Assembly: GCA_049287205.1 (NCBI GenBank)
Contig: JBAQFJ010000001.1
Span: 842,505-906,504 of the forward strand
DNA: 64,000 nucleotides
Source: Microgenomates group bacterium
GTDB lineage: Bacteria > Patescibacteriota > Microgenomatia > UBA10105 > UBA927
Direction of reading: 5' to 3'
The position numbers were made by a program, and so were the translations under genes. The notes under the pieces are model-generated. The model saw only the letters and a list, made by a program, of their open reading frames with translations. It did no database searches and had not been told where the DNA came from. Positions 3,969 to 39,620 of the stretch are shown here, one piece after another (positions within the stretch are counted from its first letter, which is position 1; each line of letters starts with the position of its first letter).

Positions 3969-4535
3969 TTATTCCTTATATTCGTGTCCGCTCCACACAA
4001 CATCTGGGACACCAACTGTTTTATTTATACCTCGCGCAATAATAAATAACAAGTCGGATAATCTGTTTACATACATCACCATAAGTGACATATGTTCTTT
4101 CGACACTGTACCGTTCATTTTTTTTGACCTGCTGTATGCAACCATCTGTCTTTCCACCCGCCTGGTAATACTCCGTACAATGTGAACAGTTGCCGACTCT
4201 TTTGTTCCGCCCGGCAAAACAAAATGAGAAAGAGGAGGGAGTTTTGTTTCAATCTCATCTATCCTTTTTTCCATTTCCCTAACCCGATGATTCAAAGATG
4301 ACACATCCCCTTTCCACCCCGCAAGTGTGCTACCGATAAGAAATAAGTCGTGCTGTACACAAACAAGCAGGTGTTTATTTTTCCCAATATGCGAAGTGTT
4401 GATTAATAATCCGATCCAACTATTTACCTCATCGATGGAACCGTATACTTCAACCAGACTATCGCATTTTACGACCCGTTTTCCACCAAAAAGCGCTGTA
4501 GTTCCATCGTCACCGGTCCGAGTATATACTGGCAT
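3969..4535 (-). CDS. pduO: ATP:cob(I)alamin adenosyltransferase, PduO type
   Basis: MPVYTRTGDDGTTALFGGKRV ... signature of PduO/MMAB-type adenosyltransferases. ATG at 4535 sits 2 nt after the nrdJ stop. Confidence 0.8.
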   Translation of the reverse strand: MPVYTRTGDDGTTALFGGKRVVKCDSLVEVYGSIDEVNSWIGLLINTSHIGKNKHLLVCVQHDLFLIGSTLAGWKGDVSSLNHRVREMEKRIDEIETKLPPLSHFVLPGGTKESATVHIVRSITRRVERQMVAYSRSKKMNGTVSKEHMSLMVMYVNRLSDLLFIIARGINKTVGVPDVVWSGHEYKE

Positions 4536-4537
4536 AC

Positions 4538-6958
4538 TTAACACTCACTGTATCCGCAGTTGTAGCATTTTTTACATGATTCTTCAAAAACAAGCGTGCC
4601 TTCACCGCACTTCGGACACAAATCAACCGTCACCATGCGATGCTCTTTTTCTTCAAGAGCTACCACTTTCGGTGTCGCTCCCATTTTTGCTAAAAGCGCC
4701 TGAATATCTTCTCCGGTTTTCTTTTCTTCATTGTTATTTCCTTTTTCCACCGTTACCCGATCTGGTTCTGTAACCGATGCATCAAGTCTGTGTTTTGCAA
4801 AAAATCCAAAATGCCGGTCGATAACTTTTGCAACCGCATCAGGCAAACTCCTCACACGATTTTCTCCAAATCCGAGTGACCTAGCTCCACCAATGCCGAT
4901 GAGTTCAGCGGCAACTTTTCGTGCCCTCTCCATTGGTGCAATTGGAGATGCCATACGGAGTATCAAAGAAATCAATCGTCCCATTGCCTCTGCCATTGCA
5001 GTAACATCACTTCCCGCTTTGCCAACATTGATGAATACCTCAATCGGTTGATTTCCGCCATTCGTATTTACCGTTACATATGCCTGCCCAACCGGCGTTT
5101 CCGCCCGATATGTTGACCCGTGCACTATATCCGGTCGCGGTTTCACTTCAGCGGCTTGTACAACCACTTCCTTTACCTCTTCTTTCTTTGGCTCTTCTTT
5201 TCTTGTTAAGACTCCCTGTCTGCTTCCTTCCCGCATATATGCAATTCCTTTGCATCCGAGATCATATGCGAGTGTATAAATCCGTTTTACATCCTCTACC
5301 GTGTGTACATTCGGTGCGTTTACCGTTTTACTGATAGATGCATCGACATATTTTTGAATTGCCGCCTGTACTTCAACATGATTTTCCGGTGTCAAATCAT
5401 TTGCTGATGCAAAATAGTCTGGTCTGTCTTCTTTAGTTGGTTCTCTCCCGTTTTCTGCCTTAAATTGTTCAAACCATGCGTCATACAGTTCATGCCGGAT
5501 CACATGATCACCTAACCTATCATGTCGCATGTATTCAAACTCATATACTGGTTCAATTCCACTGGAAACTCCAGACAACATAGATGTTGAACCAGTCGGG
5601 GCTTGCTGCAATAATAATGAATTTCTCACCCCGTATCTCCTCATTTTCTTTTTCAATTCATCAGGCAATTGGCTGGGAAAGTATCCTTCAACATGCTTCT
5701 TCTTATCAATTTTTGGGAACGGTCCTTTTTCTTTCGCAATCATGATGGATGACTCATAGGCCGCATCTCTGATTGTTTTATAAATTTTATCAATCACTGC
5801 CAAGCTTTCTTTTGATCCATAACGGATTTTCATCTTGATAAGTGCGTCACCCAAGCCCATGGTGCCAAGACCAATACGCCGTTCTCCTTCCAGTTGCACT
5901 TTTTTGATTTCATCAAATATATACACGTCAGCATCAACCACATTGTCCTGAAACCGAACACCGATTTTAGCAACTTCCGCAAGACGCTCATAATTCATCG
6001 TGCCATCAACACCCACAAGTGCAGCCAAATTGATGGAGCATAAATTACAAACGCCCCAATACGGCAAACCTTCCTCACCACACGGATTCACACAATTCAC
6101 AAATTCATAATAATAATTATTAAACTGTTTATTGTATCTCTCCATAAATACAACACCCGGCTCGGCACTTGTCCAAGCTGCTTTTGCAACCAAATCCCAT
6201 AATTCCCGCGCTTTTACCGTTTTAATTATTTTTGGCGTTTTCCCAAGTGCTAACCAGTTTGGCATATATCCATCCCATTTCGTGTCATAGTCAGGATCTT
6301 GCGTGTCAGGGAAAATCAGATTCCAATCTTCATCGTTTTTAACAGCGGTCATAAATGCATCAGATACACACACGGAAAGATTTGCACCGTTAATTTTTGT
6401 TAAATCTTGTTTCACTGTAATGAATTCTTCTATATCCGGATGCCAATCCCAAAGCATTAACATTAAAGCTCCACGGCGCGTTCCACCCTGCTGAATAATA
6501 TCTTTTGTTGCCACAGAAAACAATTCTGCCCAATTAATAGGACCGGAAGAAAAACCGTTCACTTTTTTTACTCGGGAGCCCCGAGGTCTCAATGTTGAAA
6601 GGTTAATTCCCACTCCTCCACCCCGCGCCATAATTTCCACCATGTTAGACAAGGTTGAAAGAATACCGCCTCTGGAGTCTTTTGGTGATGGGATGACAAA
6701 ACAGTTATAGAAGGTTACCTTATATCCGGTTCCAGCTCCTGAAAGAATTCTGCCACCTGGGACAAACACAAAGTCTTGCATGACATCGTAGAATTTTTCT
6801 TCCCAGTGTAATCGGGTTTCTGGTTTTTCGATTTTTGCCACCGCGTGAGCAACACGGTGCCACATATCCTCAGGAGTTTTTTCTATTGGAGCTCCCATCT
6901 CGTCTTTGAGTGCATATCGGTCCAAAAAGACCTTGCTACGAATTCCAGTAAGTTCCAT
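4538..6958 (-). CDS. nrdJ: ribonucleoside-triphosphate/diphosphate reductase, class II (adenosylcobalamin-dependent)
   Basis: 806 aa. RNR catalytic core motifs and a C-terminal Cys4 zinc ribbon (CPKCGEGTLVFEESCKKCYNCG) typical of NrdJ. Confidence 0.9.
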   Translation of the reverse strand: MELTGIRSKVFLDRYALKDEMGAPIEKTPEDMWHRVAHAVAKIEKPETRLHWEEKFYDVMQDFVFVPGGRILSGAGTGYKVTFYNCFVIPSPKDSRGGILSTLSNMVEIMARGGGVGINLSTLRPRGSRVKKVNGFSSGPINWAELFSVATKDIIQQGGTRRGALMLMLWDWHPDIEEFITVKQDLTKINGANLSVCVSDAFMTAVKNDEDWNLIFPDTQDPDYDTKWDGYMPNWLALGKTPKIIKTVKARELWDLVAKAAWTSAEPGVVFMERYNKQFNNYYYEFVNCVNPCGEEGLPYWGVCNLCSINLAALVGVDGTMNYERLAEVAKIGVRFQDNVVDADVYIFDEIKKVQLEGERRIGLGTMGLGDALIKMKIRYGSKESLAVIDKIYKTIRDAAYESSIMIAKEKGPFPKIDKKKHVEGYFPSQLPDELKKKMRRYGVRNSLLLQQAPTGSTSMLSGVSSGIEPVYEFEYMRHDRLGDHVIRHELYDAWFEQFKAENGREPTKEDRPDYFASANDLTPENHVEVQAAIQKYVDASISKTVNAPNVHTVEDVKRIYTLAYDLGCKGIAYMREGSRQGVLTRKEEPKKEEVKEVVVQAAEVKPRPDIVHGSTYRAETPVGQAYVTVNTNGGNQPIEVFINVGKAGSDVTAMAEAMGRLISLILRMASPIAPMERARKVAAELIGIGGARSLGFGENRVRSLPDAVAKVIDRHFGFFAKHRLDASVTEPDRVTVEKGNNNEEKKTGEDIQALLAKMGATPKVVALEEKEHRMVTVDLCPKCGEGTLVFEESCKKCYNCGYSEC

Positions 6959-34187: not shown

Positions 34188-34969
34188 TTATTTTTTCAAC
34201 TTTCGATATATATCCTCATCAATCATTGACGCTTTACAAGGGGAAACCGCGATATGACCCCTTTGTATCACTTGAACATCCGTATCCGCATCACCCATGG
34301 TCAGCATATGATCGCCTGATACATAAGAAAACATACCTGTTTTTTTATTTAACTCCATCGGTGGCCACAATCCACGCATAATTTCAAGCGGTTTAGCAAA
34401 TTCTACGATGGTCGTATGATGTGCAGGAATATTAATATTGGCAATACTTGCCCCCCAACACTTTGTACGAAATGCTTCATCTAAAATATTCTTTGCTGAC
34501 ATTCCCGGATGTTTAATGAATGCTTCAATCCCGTCTGTTTTGGTATGCCGGGTAAAATGATGTTTGGAGGAAATATCCCAACTAATAGCGATAGCCCGCG
34601 GAGCAAGACCGAGATTTATTCCGTAAAACGCTGCCGAAAATGTTCCGGAGCTACATAAACTACCACCAACATTAATACCCCAATTCATGCCGGAGACAAT
34701 ATAGTCAAATGGATGTGTATACCATGATTTAGCCGCTTCGATTGCATCAACCGGCGTACCGTTCACCCATAATGCAGGAACTCCATCAACTTTTTCCACT
34801 CCCCATTCTCCCGTTCCTGTAATTGATTTATGTCCGCCAACCCCGCTTTGTTGTTTTTTTGTTCCTGCAATAGAAAGCTTATGTGAGTTTTTCAATATAT
34901 GAATCAGGACACGAGTCCCTAAAGAATCATACCCATCATCACCGGTTAAAAGTATTGATTTTTTATTCA
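34188..34969 (-). CDS. surE: 5'/3'-nucleotidase SurE
   Basis: MNKKSILLTGDDGYDS N-terminus (SurE DDG motif). The track ORF continues upstream through the tRNA-Ser gene from a TTG and is not credible there. Confidence 0.8.
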
Positions 34970-34972
34970 TAA

Positions 34973-35061
34973 GCGGAGGAGACAGGATTCGAACCTGCGA
35001 TGAGGTTGCCCCCAAACAGACTTTCCAGGTCTGCGCCATAAACCAACTAGGCGACTCCTCC
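34973..35061 (-). tRNA. tRNA-Ser (GGA)
   Basis: GGAGGAG acceptor, anticodon loop CUGGAAA, long variable arm, T loop UUCGAAU. Confidence 0.8.
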
Positions 35062-35066
35062 AAATA

Positions 35067-35315
35067 TTAAAATTGCGAAACTATCTTTTTCTTTTCTAAA
35101 TATCCTTTTGGATGTTTTAAAAACCACTCCCTTGTATACGCCTCTTTTTTATTCTCAAAACTTTCTATATATTTCAAAACCCACGGTCTATACGGTTTCG
35201 TCGATTTTGATTTTCCTTTGTTATGTTCCTCCAACCTTCTCTCAATATTATCTGAAACACCAATATACCATCTCTTATAGATGTCGCTTTTCAAAAAATA
35301 AACAATCCAAGCCAT
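35067..35315 (-). CDS. GIY-YIG nuclease family protein (YhbQ/UPF0213-like)
   Basis: WYIGVSDNIERRLEEHNKG matches the GIY-YIG core (Y-x-G ... R ... E-H). Confidence 0.75.
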   Translation of the reverse strand: MAWIVYFLKSDIYKRWYIGVSDNIERRLEEHNKGKSKSTKPYRPWVLKYIESFENKKEAYTREWFLKHPKGYLEKKKIVSQF

Positions 35316-35359
35316 AAACCAAAGCCGACGGCTGCCCTTCGGGCCTAGGCGACTCCTCC
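35311..35359. repeat. duplicated 5' fragment of tRNA-Ser(GGA) interrupted by a 22-nt GC hairpin
   Basis: gccataaaccaa + [agccgacggctgcccttcgggc] + ctaggcgactcctcc repeats nt 1-27 of the tRNA at 35035-35061. The GIY-YIG ATG lies inside the copy. Confidence 0.5.
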
Positions 35360-35406
35360 TTGGAAAAACTTATCGAATTATATCATTCTTGCGATATAAT
35401 CGGAGT

Positions 35407-36312
35407 ATGTCGAAAAAACATCTCGCGTTCCTCGCAATTTTTGTCGCCTCTCTTCTCTGGTCAACTTCAGGTGTTTCAGCAAAAATTCTTGTTGCCGATG
35501 TTAACCCGATTGTTATCAGCATGTATCGATTTTTTATCGCCTCGTTATGCATCCTACCGTTTTTTATCAGACAAAAACATAAACACTTTCCATGGAAACA
35601 ACTGCTCATGCCGACAATTATTGGAGGACTGAGCGCTCCATTGTTTTTTCTTGGCATCAAAACAACGCTCGCTAATTCAGGAACACTCATCTATACCGCC
35701 ACTCCTCTTGTCACCGCAATACTTGCATATTTCCTTATCCGTGAAAAAAATTCCTTGTCAAAATGGATAGGGATTCTTATCGGACTCATCGGAGTTATTC
35801 TCATAATCCTGCTCCCAACTTATGAAACAAAAACTGCTATGACGGGCAATCTTCAAGGCAATATGCTTATCACAGCGGGAATGCTTTGTTGGACTGTATA
35901 TGCAATTTTATGCCGAAAACTCAGACTGAATAATCAGGTATCTTCAATTACAACGACATCAATATATTTTTTTGTATCCACCATTCTCTGTTTTCTATTT
36001 TTAACAGTCACAAACGAACCGTTATTCCCCGCCGCACTTTTTTCATCACCAACACATCTCGGGGTACTTATCTATTTAGCAATAGGATTAACGCTCATCA
36101 CATTTTCTCTTTACCAGTGGGCTATCGGTTATCTTAGCGCCACCACTGCATCATTTAAACAATATATTGAGGTGGTGTTTGCCATTATCGTCAATGGAAT
36201 ATTTCTTGGAGAAAAAATGACCACCGGATTTCTCATTGGAGCCTCTCTTGTTGTTTTAGGTCTTATTGTCGCAACGGTCGGAAAAATGAACAGTTTAAGA
36301 AGAAATAAATAA
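35407..36312 (+). CDS. EamA/DMT-family transporter
   Basis: 10 TM helices. WSTSGVSAKILV EamA-like motif. ATG 35407 preferred over 35389. Confidence 0.75.
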   Translation: MSKKHLAFLAIFVASLLWSTSGVSAKILVADVNPIVISMYRFFIASLCILPFFIRQKHKHFPWKQLLMPTIIGGLSAPLFFLGIKTTLANSGTLIYTATPLVTAILAYFLIREKNSLSKWIGILIGLIGVILIILLPTYETKTAMTGNLQGNMLITAGMLCWTVYAILCRKLRLNNQVSSITTTSIYFFVSTILCFLFLTVTNEPLFPAALFSSPTHLGVLIYLAIGLTLITFSLYQWAIGYLSATTASFKQYIEVVFAIIVNGIFLGEKMTTGFLIGASLVVLGLIVATVGKMNSLRRNK

Positions 36313-36314
36313 CT

Positions 36315-36389
36315 TGGCGCTCCTGTGCAGAGTCGAACTGCAATTACAGCCTCCGGAGGGCCGCGTTCTATCCATTGAACTACAGAAGC
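36315..36389 (-). tRNA. tRNA-Arg (CCG)
   Basis: Acceptor GCUUCUG/CAGGAGC, anticodon loop CUCCGGA, T loop UUCGACU. CCA encoded. Confidence 0.85.
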
Positions 36390-36395
36390 AAATTT

Positions 36396-36821
36396 TTACG
36401 CTATTTTTGTGATATCCCGATCAATAACCATCGGCTGCATGGAATACATCTCAATCGAATAATTCATATCAGGAACAGGATTCATCAAAAAAATCTTTTT
36501 TCCAAGTCCATAAGCATGCCCCATCTCTAAAAATGTATTCCCACCGATATAACCTTCAATGCCTTTTTTTTCGTAGTTAAGAACGAGGATTGCGTCCGAC
36601 TCCTCAATCTTCCTGAAATGTTCCCGTATAAAATCGTACTCAATTTTTGCGCTTATCTTTACTTCATCTGCAATATCCGTTCTTGCCTCAATAGGCATTT
36701 CATCACTGAATGTATCAATTGGCACTAACACTTCATGTCCGAGAATTTCTAGTCCGTCTTTCACCGCACGCATTTCCATCCAAAATGACATACTTCCACA
36801 AATAGTAATTTTCATAATCAC
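36396..36821 (-). CDS. hypothetical protein (possible nucleoside 2-deoxyribosyltransferase-like fold)
   Basis: KITICGSMSF N-terminus typical of that Rossmann-like family. Weak. Confidence 0.3.
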   Translation of the reverse strand: MIMKITICGSMSFWMEMRAVKDGLEILGHEVLVPIDTFSDEMPIEARTDIADEVKISAKIEYDFIREHFRKIEESDAILVLNYEKKGIEGYIGGNTFLEMGHAYGLGKKIFLMNPVPDMNYSIEMYSMQPMVIDRDITKIA

Positions 36822-36885
36822 CTCTCTCCTTCGCGATCCGAATGCCGACTGCGTCCGCCGTAGTCCAGCTTAAGGCGAGCGAAGG

Positions 36886-36971
36886 CGGAGGATGCAGGAT
36901 TCGAACCTGCGCCTCCCTTTCGGGAGAACAGTTTTCGAGACTGTCGCCGTAAACCACTTGGCTAATCCTCC
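36886..36971 (-). tRNA. tRNA-Ser (CGA)
   Basis: GGAGGAU acceptor, anticodon loop CUCGAAA, long variable arm, T loop UUCGAAU. Confidence 0.85.
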
Positions 36972-36980
36972 TTGTAGCAT

Positions 36981-37008
36981 GTGCGTCGCGTCAAACGCGA
37001 CAGCCACG
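36981..37008. repeat. 28-bp palindrome-containing repeat, copy 1 (gtgcgtcgcgtcaaacgcgacagccacg)
   Basis: Exact 28/28 match to 37689-37716. Contains GTCGCG-tcaaa-CGCGAC inverted repeat. Located between tRNA-Arg(GCG) and tRNA-Ser(CGA). Confidence 0.6.
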
Positions 37009-37015
37009 TTTGACG

Positions 37016-37090
37016 TGGCGCTCTCGCACAGAATCGAACTGTGATCAGAGCTTCCGCAAAGCCCTATTCTATCCGTTGAACTACGAGAGC
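37016..37090 (-). tRNA. tRNA-Arg (GCG)
   Basis: Acceptor GCUCUCG/CGAGAGC, anticodon loop UUGCGGA, T loop UUCGAUU. CCA encoded. Confidence 0.8.
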
Positions 37091-37126
37091 TAATATGCGC
37101 ATTTTACTACGAAACGAGACCTGAGG

Positions 37127-37648
37127 CTACACACCGGGTTTTTCCAGAGGAATTTTTTTAGAAAGCCAAGATGACGCATTCTCCACCCATGACCGTTCCG
37201 GATGTTCTCGGAATGGAATATACTTTTCCAACACTTCCTGCACGCTTTTTTTATCTTGTTCGCCCAATAGAATAATAATACGCGGCCCAATCATTGGTTG
37301 CAGCAACAACAACTGCTGATCCCACTGCGCCTCAAACCAAAATGCGGCTATCTCTTCCCACCGATAATAGTGTCCCGCGCTTTCAATTCCTAAACTTGTT
37401 ACCCGATGCGCAACATCTTCCGGAGGGACAGTTGATAATACATAAATCAGAAACACAATGGAAAGCACTGCGGCAACCAACACAAATTCACGGGCAAAAA
37501 TAAGAATAACAACGAGAAGAAAAACAATCGCGCCAATATTAGTAAAATACTCTTTATTCCGCCGTTTAAACAGCCTTGAGGGAGATGTCCAGCTTATATA
37601 TACTTCTTCTTTTGGATTTTTGTTTTCGGAGGCAGACGATTGATCCAT
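37127..37648 (-). CDS. hypothetical membrane protein
   Basis: Internal ATG at 37648 (MDQSSASENK...). The track's upstream extension crosses tRNA-Ser(TGA). Two TM helices. Confidence 0.45.
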   Translation of the reverse strand: MDQSSASENKNPKEEVYISWTSPSRLFKRRNKEYFTNIGAIVFLLVVILIFAREFVLVAAVLSIVFLIYVLSTVPPEDVAHRVTSLGIESAGHYYRWEEIAAFWFEAQWDQQLLLLQPMIGPRIIILLGEQDKKSVQEVLEKYIPFREHPERSWVENASSWLSKKIPLEKPGV

Positions 37649-37688
37649 ACAGTCAGTATATACTACAAAATAAAAAAGTAGAAGTAAC

Positions 37689-37716
37689 GTGCGTCGCGTC
37701 AAACGCGACAGCCACG
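37689..37716. repeat. 28-bp palindrome-containing repeat, copy 2
   Basis: Identical to 36981-37008. Lies between the start of gene 37127-37648 and the 3' end of tRNA-Ser(TGA). Confidence 0.6.
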
Positions 37717-37727
37717 GCGGACGAAGG

Positions 37728-37809
37728 CGGAGGATACAGGGGTCGAACCTGTTAGGGATTGCTCCCACGAGTTTTCAAGACTCGCGCATTACCGTCCTGC
37801 CCACCCTCC
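37728..37809 (-). tRNA. tRNA-Ser (TGA)
   Basis: GGAGGGU acceptor, anticodon loop CUUGAAA, long variable arm, T loop UUCGACC. Confidence 0.85.
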
Positions 37810-37847
37810 AGTGGTTTTTCTTACATCTCTCTTTCACGATCTACAAG

Positions 37848-37935
37848 CGGAGGAGACAGGATTTGAACCTGCGCGAGCTATTACTAGCTCAAGGGTTTAG
37901 CAAACCCTCGCAATGGACCACTATGCGACTCCTCC
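37848..37935 (-). tRNA. tRNA-Ser (GCT)
   Basis: GGAGGAG acceptor, anticodon loop UUGCUAA, long variable arm, T loop UUCAAAU. Confidence 0.85.
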
Positions 37936-39123: not shown

Positions 39124-39210
39124 ATTAAATTAAATGTTTATTACGAAATGCAAAACCAGCACTACTGTGGCCTGCCACGCGAAGCCCTGATGCAAAATCA
39201 AGGCGGAGTG

Positions 39211-39620
39211 TGGAGATGCCGGGGGTGAGCCCGGGTCCAAAAACGTAAATAACAAACGTCTACAAGCGTAGTCTATGTGATTTCCTACTTACCTTAGAAC
39301 ATAGACAAAAAAGTAAATAGGGTGTGACTGAAATAAACTCCGAAATCGAGCCAGTCGTCTCGATCTCTGACGCTCCAGCTATATTTTCACCCAAAAATTA
39401 CTCGCTGGAAAACAGTAAAATCCGGATGATTCCTTATGCTCGTGCGAATGCAAAAGCAGGGGAATTCTTGAAAGCTAATGCCTGTTCAAGTTGAGCAAGT
39501 TTCGCTTCAAGCTTACTGAGGGTTGTATCAGCATGTATTTTTTGATACCTGATTAACGACAATGTATCCATGTCGGCTTGCTGTTTGTCAAAGTGCATTC
39601 CTGTCGAATCGTACATCCCC
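39211..39620 (-). ncRNA. ssrA: tmRNA (SsrA)
   Basis: 5' end GGGGAUGUACGAUUCGACAGG matches the tmRNA consensus. PK1 CGACA/UGUCG + GGAUAC/GUAUC. GCU resume codon 11 nt after PK1. In-frame tag ending NSPAFAFARA-UAA. 3' CAUCUCC pairs with the 5' GGGGAUG. Directly downstream of smpB. Confidence 0.65.

What the first reader, a model, noticed from the sequence alone, without database searches (positions are those of the whole stretch)
34973..35359. GIY-YIG gene wedged between tRNA-Ser(GGA) and a hairpin-interrupted duplicate of the tRNA 5' end
The first 27 nt of tRNA-Ser(GGA) (35035-35061) reappear at 35311-35359, split by a 22-nt GC-rich hairpin. The GIY-YIG ORF initiates inside this copy. A duplicated tRNA end flanking a nuclease gene is the scar expected from a small insertion or homing-type event, or from an ancestral tRNA duplication disrupted by the hairpin. 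GIY-YIG genes are frequent passengers of such events.
Basis: seen in the sequence. Interest (0 to 1): 0.55.

Follow-up and report, generated by a model that had tools for sequence, protein, structure and literature searches.

The report
Nuclease cassette inserted in tRNA gene
A tiny nuclease gene has inserted into the front end of a serine tRNA gene, bringing a replacement front end so the tRNA still works and leaving the old front end, split by a conserved double hairpin, as its own promoter-linked leader; the same three-part design recurs next to many different tRNA genes in two bacterial phyla and I found no published description of it.

Summary
tRNA-Ser(GGA) nt 1-15 and 16-27 reappear exactly at 35359-35345 and 35322-35311 (minus strand). 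A unique 22-nt insert separates them, and the ATG of an 82-aa GIY-YIG ORF lies inside the copy. The chance expectation is 0.00.

It is one instance of a widespread composite element: promoter, tRNA 5' stub split by a GC-rich double hairpin, small SLX1/UPF0213-like GIY-YIG gene, then the intact tRNA.
- In 51 of 69 homologous loci (Patescibacteria, Bacteroidota) the stub copies that locus's own tRNA (Ser, Arg, Asn, Tyr, Glu, Cys, Gly). A control region gave 0 of 69.
- A syntenic relative (L098) is an empty site: the same promoter abuts an uninterrupted tRNA.
- The GIY-YIG tree follows tRNA target, not host taxon.
- Tandem arrays exist.
- The hairpin pair shows compensatory changes (100% paired, 0/500 shuffles). 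It diverges far less than ORF third-codon positions.

The best reading is a homing-like mobile cassette that copies itself into tRNA genes and uses the tRNA promoter. The hairpin is a conserved module, not an accidental disruption. How the cassette moves and what the hairpins do are inferred, not shown. Phage SegB is the closest described analogue. I found no description of this architecture.

The parts
35377..35385 (-). Extended -10 promoter element TGATATAAT, 17 nt upstream of the stub. This is the native promoter of the tRNA-Ser(GGA) gene and now also drives the GIY-YIG gene (inferred).
   Evidence: Read from the sequence. It is conserved in L010, in the empty-site allele L098 (TGGTATAAT at the same distance from tRNA position 1) and in L011. 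Equivalent promoters lie just upstream of stubs in other loci. No transcript data are available.
35345..35359 (-). Stub segment A: an exact copy of tRNA-Ser(GGA) nt 1-15, sitting where the tRNA 5' end sits in the empty-site allele.
   Evidence: Across 60 loci, segment A has 14 mismatches in 720 nt against the locus's own tRNA.
35323..35344 (-). Double-hairpin module: hairpin 1 at 35344-35334 (GCCCGAAGGGC) and hairpin 2 at 35333-35323 (AGCCGTCGGCT). It is inserted cleanly between tRNA positions 15 and 16 (D-loop) of the stub.
   Evidence: Covariation across 15 distinct family versions: 100% of cells paired, 21 cells changed on both sides, 0/500 shuffles. The single long hairpin model is not supported. 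The module has 0-1 changes in 22 nt among window, L010 and L011.
35311..35322 (-). Stub segment B': an exact copy of tRNA nt 16-27. It contains the ATG (35315-35313) of the GIY-YIG ORF.
35067..35315 (-). 82-aa GIY-YIG nuclease gene. It is a bare catalytic domain of the UPF0213/SLX1-like type.
   Evidence: Pfam PF01541 E=2.3e-15. Invariant Y17, G19, R27, H31, N32 and E63 in 18 homologues. PDB profile hits to 1zg2, 1ywl and SLX1. AF2 pLDDT 92.4. Foldseek SLX1 TM about 0.72. Against L010 there are 14 synonymous and 8 non-synonymous codon changes.
35062..35066 (-). 5-nt A/T-rich spacer (TATTT) between the stop codon and the intact tRNA. In many homologues the ORF instead runs into the tRNA and stops at the D-loop TAG.
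34973..35061 (-). Intact tRNA-Ser(GGA), the functional copy. Its allele is strongly divergent from that of relatives that lack an insert in this tRNA.
   Evidence: ARAGORN. Rfam 55.7 bits. It is 74% identical to L098 and 70% to L096, while tRNA-Arg(CCG) and tRNA-Ser(CGA) are 100% identical over the aligned length.
34188..34970 (-). Context only: surE, whose start codon lies 3 nt after the tRNA 3' end. It served as the syntenic anchor to find relatives.
35407..36312 (+). Context only: an EamA-family transporter transcribed divergently from the promoter. It is the syntenic anchor on the other side.

Best explanation
This is a small mobile cassette that lives inside the 5' part of tRNA genes.

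Anatomy, read 5' to 3' on the coding strand:
- the tRNA's own promoter;
- a stub, the first 27 nt of the tRNA, split at D-loop position 15/16 by a 22-nt double hairpin;
- an 82-aa stand-alone GIY-YIG nuclease gene, whose start codon here is supplied by the stub;
- a complete tRNA-Ser(GGA).

Shown:
- The stub occupies the place where the tRNA 5' end sits in an empty-site relative.
- The same design recurs at many different tRNA genes in different genomes and neighbourhoods.
- The stub always copies the local tRNA.
- The nuclease is under purifying selection.
- The double hairpin is structurally conserved.

Inferred:
- The cassette spreads the way a free-standing homing endonuclease gene does. 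The nuclease breaks a tRNA gene. The break is repaired by homologous recombination from an occupied allele, in which the stub supplies the left homology arm and the intact tRNA the right arm. This copies hairpins, ORF and a fresh 5' end into the target and tends to convert the whole short tRNA to the donor allele.
- The cassette is then transcribed from the tRNA promoter, and the tRNA is released from the transcript by normal 5' processing.
- The double hairpin is a required part of the cassette. Either it keeps the stub from being an intact nuclease or recombination target, or it is the DNA structure that the SLX1-like nuclease acts on. Which of these holds is not resolved.
For: Split repeat:
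- It is exact, with a chance expectation of 0.00.

Empty site:
- In L098 a homologous promoter abuts tRNA position 1 and there is no GIY-YIG gene, in the same synteny.
- The occupied arrangement is present in L010, and in L011 within a different neighbourhood. The shared block runs from the -10 element to the tRNA 3' end.

Recurrence:
- The GIY-YIG gene is followed by a same-strand tRNA in most of about 90 loci.
- 51 of 69 have an exact copy of at least 10 nt of their own tRNA start upstream of the ORF, against 0 of 69 in a control region.
- This holds for Ser, Arg, Asn, Tyr, Glu, Cys and Gly tRNAs.
- In 34 of 48 loci homology upstream of the stub stops at tRNA position 1 (within 2 nt), and promoter motifs sit just before it.

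Signs of mobility:
- The GIY-YIG phylogeny follows tRNA target, not host taxon.
- Tandem arrays have the unit [hairpin-B'-ORF-leader-A] with the intact tRNA last.
- The window's tRNA-Ser(GGA) is 74% identical to the empty-site allele, while two neighbouring tRNAs are identical.

Nuclease:
- Catalytic residues are invariant. The fold is SLX1/UPF0213-like. Against L010 there are 14 synonymous and 8 non-synonymous codon changes.

Hairpins:
- 100% of cells pair, with compensatory changes and 0/500 shuffles.
- Stub plus hairpins differ at 1 of 49 nt, against about 20% divergence at third-codon positions (P about 2e-4).
- The CPR hairpin motif has 50 hits in about 13 kb just upstream of GIY-YIG starts, against 11 in about 391 kb elsewhere. 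Eight of those 11 lie next to recognisable tRNA sequence.

Precedent:
- Phage GIY-YIG SegB cleaves inside tRNA genes, is enriched next to tRNAs, and drives amplification that depends on homologous recombination (PMC2330249 abstract; PMC13096335).
Against: - No cleavage activity or target is known for this protein. It is only a catalytic domain with no DNA-reading domain, so sequence-specific homing is not assured.
- The intact tRNA next to the cassette keeps the presumed target sequence. A nuclease specific for it should cut its own host, unless the linked allele is resistant or expression is low.
- The cassette is stably inherited in the closest relative (L010), so recent mobility in this lineage is not shown.
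- tRNA allele turnover is not confined to the cassette-bearing gene. tRNA-Arg(GCG) is 73% identical between window and L098, and tRNA-Ser(CGA) is 73% between window and L092, with no GIY-YIG homologue detected near them in the window. The divergent Ser(GGA) allele is therefore only suggestive of co-conversion.
- The window's allele has no close match among the other cassette-linked alleles sampled (at most 77.5%).
- Segment B' has no obvious role in a simple homing model.
- There are only two weak hits in viral contigs.
Confidence: 0.7

Rival explanations
1. Domesticated, vertically inherited operon. The small GIY-YIG protein is a host gene with a cellular role (for example repair, or something tRNA-related) that has long been co-transcribed with the tRNA. 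The stub is an old duplication kept similar to the tRNA by gene conversion. Nothing is mobile now.
For: The closest relative has the identical arrangement and synteny. The ORF is under purifying selection. The protein belongs to the UPF0213/YhbQ-like group, which includes ordinary chromosomal genes. Linkage to the tRNA is extremely tight, with frequent ORF-tRNA overlap.
Against: There is an empty-site allele in the same synteny. The same block occurs in a different neighbourhood in L011. Related proteins sit at at least 10 different tRNA species, and the tree follows the target rather than the taxon. Tandem arrays exist. One copy is frameshifted (L011). A host function does not explain why a stub with a hairpin is regenerated at every tRNA.
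Confidence: 0.12
2. There are two independent elements. The GIY-YIG gene inserted with a simple 27-nt duplication. The 22-nt double hairpin is a separate miniature mobile palindrome that later landed in the dispensable stub, and survives there only because insertions into functional tRNA genes are lethal.
For: Some stubs carry two hairpin modules at different positions, or nested or tandem ones (L003, L018, L066, L076, L072, L075, L090). Modules also occur in ORF-less partial tRNA copies and in a mirror arrangement (L024, L054, L083, and the L003 orphan at 2789-2840). GC-rich double-hairpin elements of fungal mitochondria behave like this (own knowledge: Paquin et al. 2000).
Against: The module is almost never found away from tRNA copies: 50 hits lie next to GIY-YIG starts, and only 3 of the other 11 are unrelated to tRNA sequence. 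There is only one copy in this 64-kb window. The insertion position is specific to each GIY-YIG clade and stays at 22/23 across five different tRNA-Arg genes. Nearly every cassette has one.
Confidence: 0.13
3. It is an intron-like or split-tRNA arrangement. The stub is the real 5' exon, and everything up to the second copy must be removed from the RNA to make the tRNA.
For: Deleting 35344-35047 would give a perfect tRNA. Group I introns are common in Patescibacteria tRNA genes (PMC13011429).
Against: A complete, high-scoring tRNA lies immediately downstream and needs no splicing. No Rfam family other than tRNA and tmRNA reaches its gathering score in the window, so no intron family does. The non-coding part is only 22 nt. 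Many stubs reach no further than tRNA position 20-30, and B' is often mismatched.
Confidence: 0.02
4. It is a chance repeat or an assembly artefact.
For: None beyond the low complexity of A/T-rich DNA.
Against: The chance expectation is 0.00. The same structure is found in independent assemblies from different samples.
Confidence: 0.01

Closest known systems
Free-standing GIY-YIG homing endonuclease SegB of T-even phages
   Same: It is a GIY-YIG nuclease gene embedded among tRNA genes. SegB cleaves inside tRNA genes, is statistically enriched next to tRNAs, is inherited together with flanking tRNA DNA, and drives tandem amplification of a tRNA-plus-nuclease unit that depends on homologous recombination (PMC2330249 abstract; PMC13096335). 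Tandem arrays of cassette units are seen here too.
   Different: SegB is a phage protein, and the cited paper treats it as having a C-terminal part beyond the catalytic domain (a C-terminally truncated form is discussed there). Here the protein is 82 aa and catalytic domain only, is SLX1/UPF0213-like rather than I-TevI-like, and is chromosomal in Patescibacteria and Bacteroidota. The sections and abstracts I read describe no stub of the tRNA 5' end, no double hairpin and no use of the tRNA promoter for SegB.
Mobile intron-less GIY-YIG ORF in Allomyces mitochondrial atp6, and fungal mitochondrial double-hairpin elements
   Same: A GIY-YIG ORF inserts inside an essential gene and brings a duplicate of the gene's end, so the gene stays functional and the displaced end is left as a fragment. 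The same genomes hold short GC-rich double-hairpin elements with compensatory changes.
   Different: That case is organellar, involves a protein-coding gene and duplicates the 3' end. Those double-hairpin elements are dispersed in many copies. Here the target is a bacterial tRNA gene, the 5' end is duplicated, and the hairpin module is confined to the cassette's tRNA fragments.
UPF0213 / YhbQ-like and SLX1 GIY-YIG nucleases
   Same: These are the best sequence and structure matches: 1zg2 at E=6e-12, and the SLX1 nuclease domain at TM about 0.72 with about 30% identity. SLX1 is a structure-specific nuclease for branched DNA (titles of entries 6seh and 7cq4).
   Different: No partner protein or extra domain is present. 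No link to tRNA genes, stubs or hairpins appears in the PDB entry names, or in the literature searches that included 'UPF0213' and 'YhbQ'.
Integrase-borne genomic islands and prophages that insert in tRNA genes
   Same: They insert into a tRNA gene and leave a partial duplicate, so an intact tRNA is preserved.
   Different: By established knowledge those use a tyrosine integrase and usually duplicate the 3' end. Here there is no integrase, the 5' end is duplicated, the cargo is about 300 bp, and the duplicate is split by a hairpin module.
[quoted passage not shown]
   Same: They occur in the same phylum, have the same kind of target and sometimes carry homing endonuclease genes.
   Different: Those are ribozymes, and the positions quoted in the passages I read are in the anticodon loop. 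The paper contains no occurrence of 'GIY-YIG'. Here there is no ribozyme, and the tRNA is restored by duplication rather than splicing.

Membership tests
GIY-YIG nuclease superfamily (Pfam PF01541) | A profile match above the curated cut-off. | tested here: met
   57.1 bits against a cut-off of 22.6, E=2.3e-15, covering residues 3-70.
GIY-YIG nuclease superfamily (Pfam PF01541) | Conserved catalytic residues: the Tyr of the GIY and YIG motifs, Arg, His and Glu. | tested here: met
   Y17, I18, G19, R27, H31, N32 and E63 are invariant, and Y6 is nearly invariant, in 18 homologues. Their catalytic role is inferred by homology. The Y17/G19 positions are the ones mutated to inactivate SegB.
GIY-YIG nuclease superfamily (Pfam PF01541) | The alpha/beta GIY-YIG fold. 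| tested here: met
   AF2 pLDDT 92.4 with strand-strand-helix-strand-helix-helix order. Foldseek hits are to UPF0213, SLX1, I-TevI and UvrC nuclease domains.
UPF0213 / SLX1-like branch of GIY-YIG | Closer to UPF0213 and SLX1 than to I-TevI or UvrC. | tested here: met
   The profile search of PDB listed only UPF0213 and SLX1 entries. Foldseek gave E about 3e-4 for these against about 0.5 or more for I-TevI and UvrC.
Free-standing homing endonuclease gene (SegB-like) | Presence/absence polymorphism at a homologous site. | tested here: met
   L098 is empty while the window and L010 are occupied, in the same synteny and with the same promoter.
Free-standing homing endonuclease gene (SegB-like) | The nuclease cleaves the allele that lacks it. 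| not testable with these tools
   This needs purified protein and DNA substrates.
Free-standing homing endonuclease gene (SegB-like) | Co-conversion of flanking markers. | tested here: inconclusive
   The cassette-linked tRNA allele is 74% identical to the empty allele, while two neighbouring tRNAs are identical. However, two other tRNAs without a cassette also show about 73% alleles.
Free-standing homing endonuclease gene (SegB-like) | A DNA-binding domain that gives long-site specificity. | tested here: not met
   The 82 aa are fully accounted for by the catalytic domain.
Group I intron in a tRNA gene | A ribozyme core and a tRNA that is interrupted unless spliced. | tested here: not met
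   At gathering thresholds Rfam matched only tRNA and tmRNA in the window, and no intron family. An intact tRNA is present.
Integrase-mediated tRNA-targeting island | An integrase gene and att repeats that duplicate the tRNA 3' end. | tested here: not met
   Only one 82-aa ORF lies between the repeats, and the 5' end is what is duplicated.
Double-hairpin / GC-cluster miniature palindromic elements | Two adjacent GC-rich stem-loops kept by compensatory changes. | tested here: met
   100% of 120 cells pair, 4 of 8 pairs change on both sides, covariation score 0.463, 0/500 shuffles.
Double-hairpin / GC-cluster miniature palindromic elements | Many dispersed copies in intergenic DNA of the same genome. 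| tested here: not met
   There is one copy in the 64-kb window. In about 404 kb of related loci, only 3 of 61 motif hits lie outside tRNA-derived sequence. Whole genomes were not available.

The most novel reading that the evidence does not exclude
The stub, double hairpin and mini-nuclease form a previously unrecognised class of minimal selfish element. It is specialised on tRNA genes and present in thousands of bacterial lineages. In this reading an SLX1-like, structure-specific nuclease acts on the DNA hairpin or cruciform structure (or on tRNA-gene DNA structure) rather than on a long sequence. Its hit-and-run activity would drive the mosaic replacement of tRNA alleles seen between close relatives.
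Probability: 0.3. Interest if true: 0.85.

Novelty: new variant of a known kind. Interest (0 to 1): 0.7.

Why it matters
If this reading is right, very many genes annotated simply as "GIY-YIG nuclease family protein" are parts of a defined mobile cassette with a recognisable non-coding signature. The protein family has about 4,600 clusters at 50% identity with E ≤ 1e-10.

That would matter in several ways:
- It would give genome annotators a rule: small GIY-YIG gene, plus a tRNA stub, plus a hairpin module, all upstream of a tRNA.
- It would explain pseudo-tRNA fragments and tandem tRNA-linked repeats in Patescibacteria and Bacteroidota.
- It would offer a mechanism for the abrupt replacement of single tRNA alleles between otherwise near-identical tRNA sets.
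- It would provide a very small nuclease-plus-DNA-structure pair to test for structure-guided cleavage.
- It would extend the phage SegB-tRNA story to cellular chromosomes.

Tried and rejected
- Exact-protein look-up of the window ORF found nothing. The cluster members had to be reached through the homologue search and cluster listing.
- The EamA anchor in metagenome contigs returned only two loci, neither covering the tRNA side. The SurE route worked instead.
- Folding the 86-nt 5' region as RNA gave no stability signal beyond shuffles (z = -0.05). The case for structure therefore rests on covariation, not energy.
- A permissive palindrome scan was uninformative: 500 hits, mostly noise. It was replaced by motif-specific scans.
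- The idea that the hairpins cut the direct repeat below the length needed for recombination, and so prevent deletion of the cassette, was considered and downgraded. Uninterrupted matches of 23-42 nt remain in many loci.
- The single 9-bp hairpin / 22-bp dsDNA palindrome model was rejected for lack of covariation.
- A terminator role for the hairpins was rejected. Most versions lack a T-run, and the tRNA lies downstream.
- The comparison of mismatches in A and B' is confounded by the variable end of the stub, so it was not used to place the cassette boundary.
- Viral contigs gave only two weak hits, so a phage origin is not supported.
- Five literature searches found no description of this bacterial architecture. 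The library misses most subscription journals.
Full report
**1. The observation**

On the minus strand the sequence reads as follows:
- a TGATATAAT element (35385-35377), then 17 nt;
- GGAGGAGTCGCCTAG (35359-35345);
- GCCCGAAGGGC AGCCGTCGGCT (35344-35323);
- TTGGTTTATGGC (35322-35311).

The ATG at 35315-35313 opens an 82-aa ORF that ends at 35067. After 5 nt comes a complete tRNA-Ser(GGA) at 35061-34973, whose first 27 nt are GGAGGAGTCGCCTAG+TTGGTTTATGGC. The start codon of surE follows 3 nt after the tRNA.

The split pattern occurs once in the window, against 0.00 expected. The 22-mer is unique even with three mismatches allowed. ARAGORN and Rfam both call the downstream tRNA, and Pfam calls the ORF GIY-YIG at E=2.3e-15. 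One correction is needed: the insert is two adjacent 11-nt hairpins, not one.

**2. The host**

The identical protein is on record from a Microgenomates-group (Patescibacteria) assembly, on a 1.02-Mb contig.

**3. The arrangement recurs**

Homologues at 63-67% identity lie in unrelated gene neighbourhoods, yet each is followed at once by tRNA-Ser(GGA). Reading those loci showed that each also has, upstream of the ORF, a copy of its own tRNA 5' end interrupted in the D-loop by a GC-rich double hairpin. The tRNA sequences differ between loci and each copy tracks its own tRNA.

A scan of one genome per species gave 80 more loci, mostly Patescibacteria with about 25 Bacteroidota.
- Most GIY-YIG genes there are followed on the same strand by a tRNA within about 60 nt.
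- In Patescibacteria this is mainly Ser(GGA), with other Ser isoacceptors, Asn, Tyr, Ala, Glu, Cys and Met.
- In Bacteroidota it is five Arg isoacceptors and Pro.
- Many ORFs run into the tRNA and stop at its D-loop TAG, which explains C-termini such as ...GGFA and ...GEVA.

By a strict test, 51 of 69 loci have an exact copy of at least 10 nt of their own tRNA start within 172 nt upstream of the ORF. A control region 1 kb further upstream gave 0 of 69. Several of the misses are stubs that fail the strict test through a mismatch or a later start (L011, L020, L026, L032, L072).

**4. The hairpin module**

In Patescibacteria the insert is about 22 nt with consensus NCCC(G/A)AAGGGN NCCCTT(C/T)GGGN. 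In Bacteroidota it is a different 20-nt palindrome, CCTGCCTGCCGGCAGGCAGG. That sequence is nearly identical in several families and sits at position 22/23 of different tRNA-Arg genes. A few loci use other GC-rich double hairpins.

For 15 distinct 22-mers, the two-hairpin model pairs in 100% of 120 cells. Twenty-one cells change on both sides, and 0 of 500 shuffles reach the observed covariation. A single long hairpin, which is equivalent to a 22-bp dsDNA palindrome, shows no covariation.

The motif is concentrated. There are 50 hits in the roughly 13 kb just upstream of GIY-YIG starts, against 11 in the other roughly 391 kb. Eight of those 11 lie next to recognisable tRNA sequence. None lies in an intact tRNA in the loci I read.

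Among the window, L010 and L011, the module has 0-1 changes in 22 nt. Between the window and L010, stub plus module has 1 change in 49 nt, while ORF third-codon positions differ by 20% (17 of 83). This gives P about 2e-4 for the 49 nt and 0.04 for the module alone. The module is therefore a conserved part of the element, not decay.

**5. Insertion rather than old duplication**

Using SurE as an anchor, I found L098. It has the order EamA, promoter, tRNA-Ser(GGA), one extra gene, SurE, DedA, one further ORF, NUDIX, DnaG. It has no GIY-YIG gene, no stub and no hairpin.

Its promoter region aligns with that of the window and L010 right up to the first tRNA nucleotide. In the window, that position is the first nucleotide of the stub. 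The stub therefore marks the ancestral tRNA start, and everything from the hairpins to the new 5' end is extra.

L096, a closer relative by SurE, also has an uninterrupted tRNA-Ser(GGA), in a rearranged neighbourhood. L011 carries the same block as the window, from the -10 element to the tRNA 3' end, in a different neighbourhood.

In 34 of 48 loci the homology between the two copies stops within 2 nt of tRNA position 1. Promoter motifs sit just upstream of the stub: TGnTATAAT-like in Patescibacteria and TAnnTTTG-like in Bacteroidota. This is what is expected if the tRNA sequence itself is the only homology used. It also means the ORF is placed behind the tRNA promoter.

**6. Signs of mobility**

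A neighbour-joining tree of the proteins groups them by tRNA target. There is an Asn clade, Ser clades with switches to other Ser isoacceptors and to Tyr, and a Bacteroidota Arg clade spanning five isoacceptors. The groups do not follow host taxon, and the hairpin position is specific to each clade.

Nine loci have tandem copies. In L057 the repeating unit is exactly [hairpin-B'-ORF-leader-A], with the intact tRNA only at the end.

There are further variants:
- L083 is a mirror form: an intact tRNA-Pro, then the ORF, then a 3' tRNA copy carrying two modules.
- L024 and L054 have tandem 5'-truncated tRNA copies with a D-loop module downstream of the intact tRNA.

**7. The tRNA allele**

The window's tRNA-Ser(GGA) is 74% identical to L098's and 70% to L096's. 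Those two are 91% identical to each other. tRNA-Arg(CCG) and tRNA-Ser(CGA) are identical between the window and L098 over the aligned length. The stub matches the window's allele at 27 of 27 positions but L098's at only 21 of 27.

This fits conversion or replacement of the whole short gene together with the cassette, but two cautions apply:
- tRNA-Arg(GCG) (window against L098) and tRNA-Ser(CGA) (window against L092) are also about 73% identical, with no GIY-YIG homologue detected near them in the window.
- No close donor allele was found among the cassette-linked alleles sampled (at most 77.5%).

Allele turnover at tRNA genes is thus mosaic in this lineage, and its link to the cassette is only a hypothesis.

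**8. The protein**

Y17, I18, G19, R27, H31, N32 and E63 are invariant in 18 homologues. Against L010 there are 14 synonymous and 8 non-synonymous codon changes.

The closest solved relatives are UPF0213 proteins (1zg2 at 6e-12; 1ywl) and then SLX1. The AlphaFold model is confident (pLDDT 92.4) and superposes on the SLX1 nuclease domain at TM about 0.72. I-TevI and UvrC match far more weakly.

There is no extra domain. It is a bare catalytic domain of the branch that includes a structure-specific nuclease. The family is large: 4,576 clusters at 50% identity with E ≤ 1e-10. The window holds only this one copy.

**9. Mechanism**

Shown:
- the anatomy;
- the empty site;
- the recurrence at many tRNAs;
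- the tracking of the local tRNA by the stub;
- the conservation of the nuclease and of the double hairpin;
- the arrays.

Inferred:
- A double-strand break in a tRNA gene is repaired from an occupied allele, with the stub as the left homology arm and the intact tRNA as the right. This copies in the hairpins, the ORF and a new 5' end.
- The cassette is expressed from the tRNA promoter, and the tRNA is cut out of the transcript by normal 5' processing.
- Arrays arise by re-cutting or unequal exchange.

Phage SegB gives a worked precedent. It is a GIY-YIG nuclease that cuts within tRNA genes and is enriched beside tRNAs. It drives amplification of a tRNA-plus-nuclease segment that depends on its nuclease activity and on recombination (PMC13096335; PMC2330249, abstract).

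Open questions:
- How does the host's own intact tRNA escape cutting? It may be a resistant linked allele, or expression may be low.
- What is segment B' for?
- What does the hairpin module do?

Three candidate roles for the module remain open, and I cannot choose between them:
- It may break up the reconstituted target in the stub.
- It may be the DNA structure on which an SLX1-like nuclease acts.
- It may stabilise or throttle the mRNA leader.

The near absence of G-U pairs (1 of 120 cells) means both strands can form the hairpins. This is compatible with a DNA-level role but does not prove one.

**10. Comparison with what is known, and novelty**

The protein is a member of the GIY-YIG superfamily, on its UPF0213/SLX1-like branch (tests met). 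The element works like a free-standing homing endonuclease gene. However, one usual feature of those, a DNA-binding domain, was tested and is absent, and cleavage could not be tested. I therefore do not file it as a SegB-type homing endonuclease.

It is not a group I intron: no Rfam intron family reached threshold. It is not an integrase island either.

The design of inserting into an essential gene while carrying a spare end, together with double hairpins, recalls the Allomyces mitochondrial atp6 element and fungal double-hairpin elements (from my own knowledge; not read here).

Five full-text searches found no description of the bacterial stub-hairpin-GIY-YIG-tRNA architecture. The recent survey of tRNA introns in Patescibacteria contains no occurrence of the term 'GIY-YIG', nor of 'hairpin', 'palindrom' or 'duplicat'. 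The library does not cover most subscription journals, so an earlier description cannot be excluded.

I rate it a new variant of a known kind, with interest 0.7.

Noticed in passing
L096 1239-1493; L011 about 5200-5352 (contig end); L003 3474-3872: A second, different small GIY-YIG type (for example MFYYVYILQSQKDNSFYIGYT..., 38% identical to the window protein) lies about 120 nt downstream of tRNA-Ser(GGA). In L096 and L011 it is preceded by a conserved leader rich in inverted repeats (...GTAATATCTTAGCGA...GAGCTTAGAGATTACG...). tRNA-Ser(GGA) thus seems to attract GIY-YIG genes on both sides.
   Followed up: partly
window 36981-37015 and 37689-37723: A 35-nt repeat (91% identical) containing a 9-bp inverted repeat (CGTCAAACG...CGTTTGACG) lies directly after the 3' ends of tRNA-Arg(GCG) and tRNA-Ser(TGA) on the minus strand. 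It could be a shared processing or termination hairpin, or a duplicated tRNA flank.
   Followed up: no
window tRNAs 36884-36971 and 37016-37090, compared with L098 and L092: tRNA identity between close relatives is mosaic. Most tRNAs are 99-100% identical, but Arg(GCG) (window against L098) and Ser(CGA) (window against L092) are only about 73%, with no GIY-YIG homologue detected nearby in the window. These may be replaced alleles.
   Followed up: partly
L003 2789-2840: An orphan stub: a different tRNA-like 5' end (GGAGAGATGTTCGA), a double hairpin (TGCGCCCAAGGCGCA TCCGCCTCGGGCGG), then GGTGGTTTG. No ORF follows, and it lies about 110 nt upstream of the Ser(GGA) stub.
   Followed up: no
L024 2950-3260; L054 2875-3000: Downstream of the intact tRNA there are tandem repeats of a 5'-truncated tRNA copy (from about position 9 to the 3' end) plus spacer. 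Each copy carries the double hairpin in the D-loop and has no ORF. ARAGORN calls some of these copies as extra tRNAs.
   Followed up: partly
L083 2411-2862: A mirror-image arrangement: an intact tRNA-Pro(CGG) with encoded CCA, 5 nt, the GIY-YIG ORF, then a 3' copy of the tRNA (about position 12 to the end) carrying two hairpin modules, one in the D-loop and one in the T-loop.
   Followed up: partly
L011 about 4516-4545: This near-identical relative of the window cassette has a 1-nt insertion a few codons into the ORF. The reading frame from the stub ATG therefore stops early. The database model starts later and lacks the GIY tyrosine. This is either decay or a sequencing error.
   Followed up: no
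L075 about 2444-2479; L090 about 2173-2216; L072 about 2425-2468; L042 about 2433-2476: Nested or tandem hairpin modules (36-44 nt) occur, as if one module had inserted into or next to another.
   Followed up: no
Proteins P0166, P0167, P0181, P0184: Some database proteins of 160-214 aa match the 82-aa profile in two separate stretches. These are probably tandem cassette ORFs fused, or called as one gene.
   Followed up: no
window 39208-39620: A tmRNA gene on the minus strand (Rfam 103 bits). It lies about 1.3 kb beyond a cluster of six tRNA genes (36315-37935) that are all on the same strand as the cassette.
   Followed up: no
L062 and L090, 30 nt upstream of both the stub and the intact tRNA: In these two Bacteroidota loci the duplication also includes the promoter-like region (23 of 30 nt identical, with TAaaTTTGca in both copies). 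The intact tRNA may therefore keep a promoter of its own.
   Followed up: no
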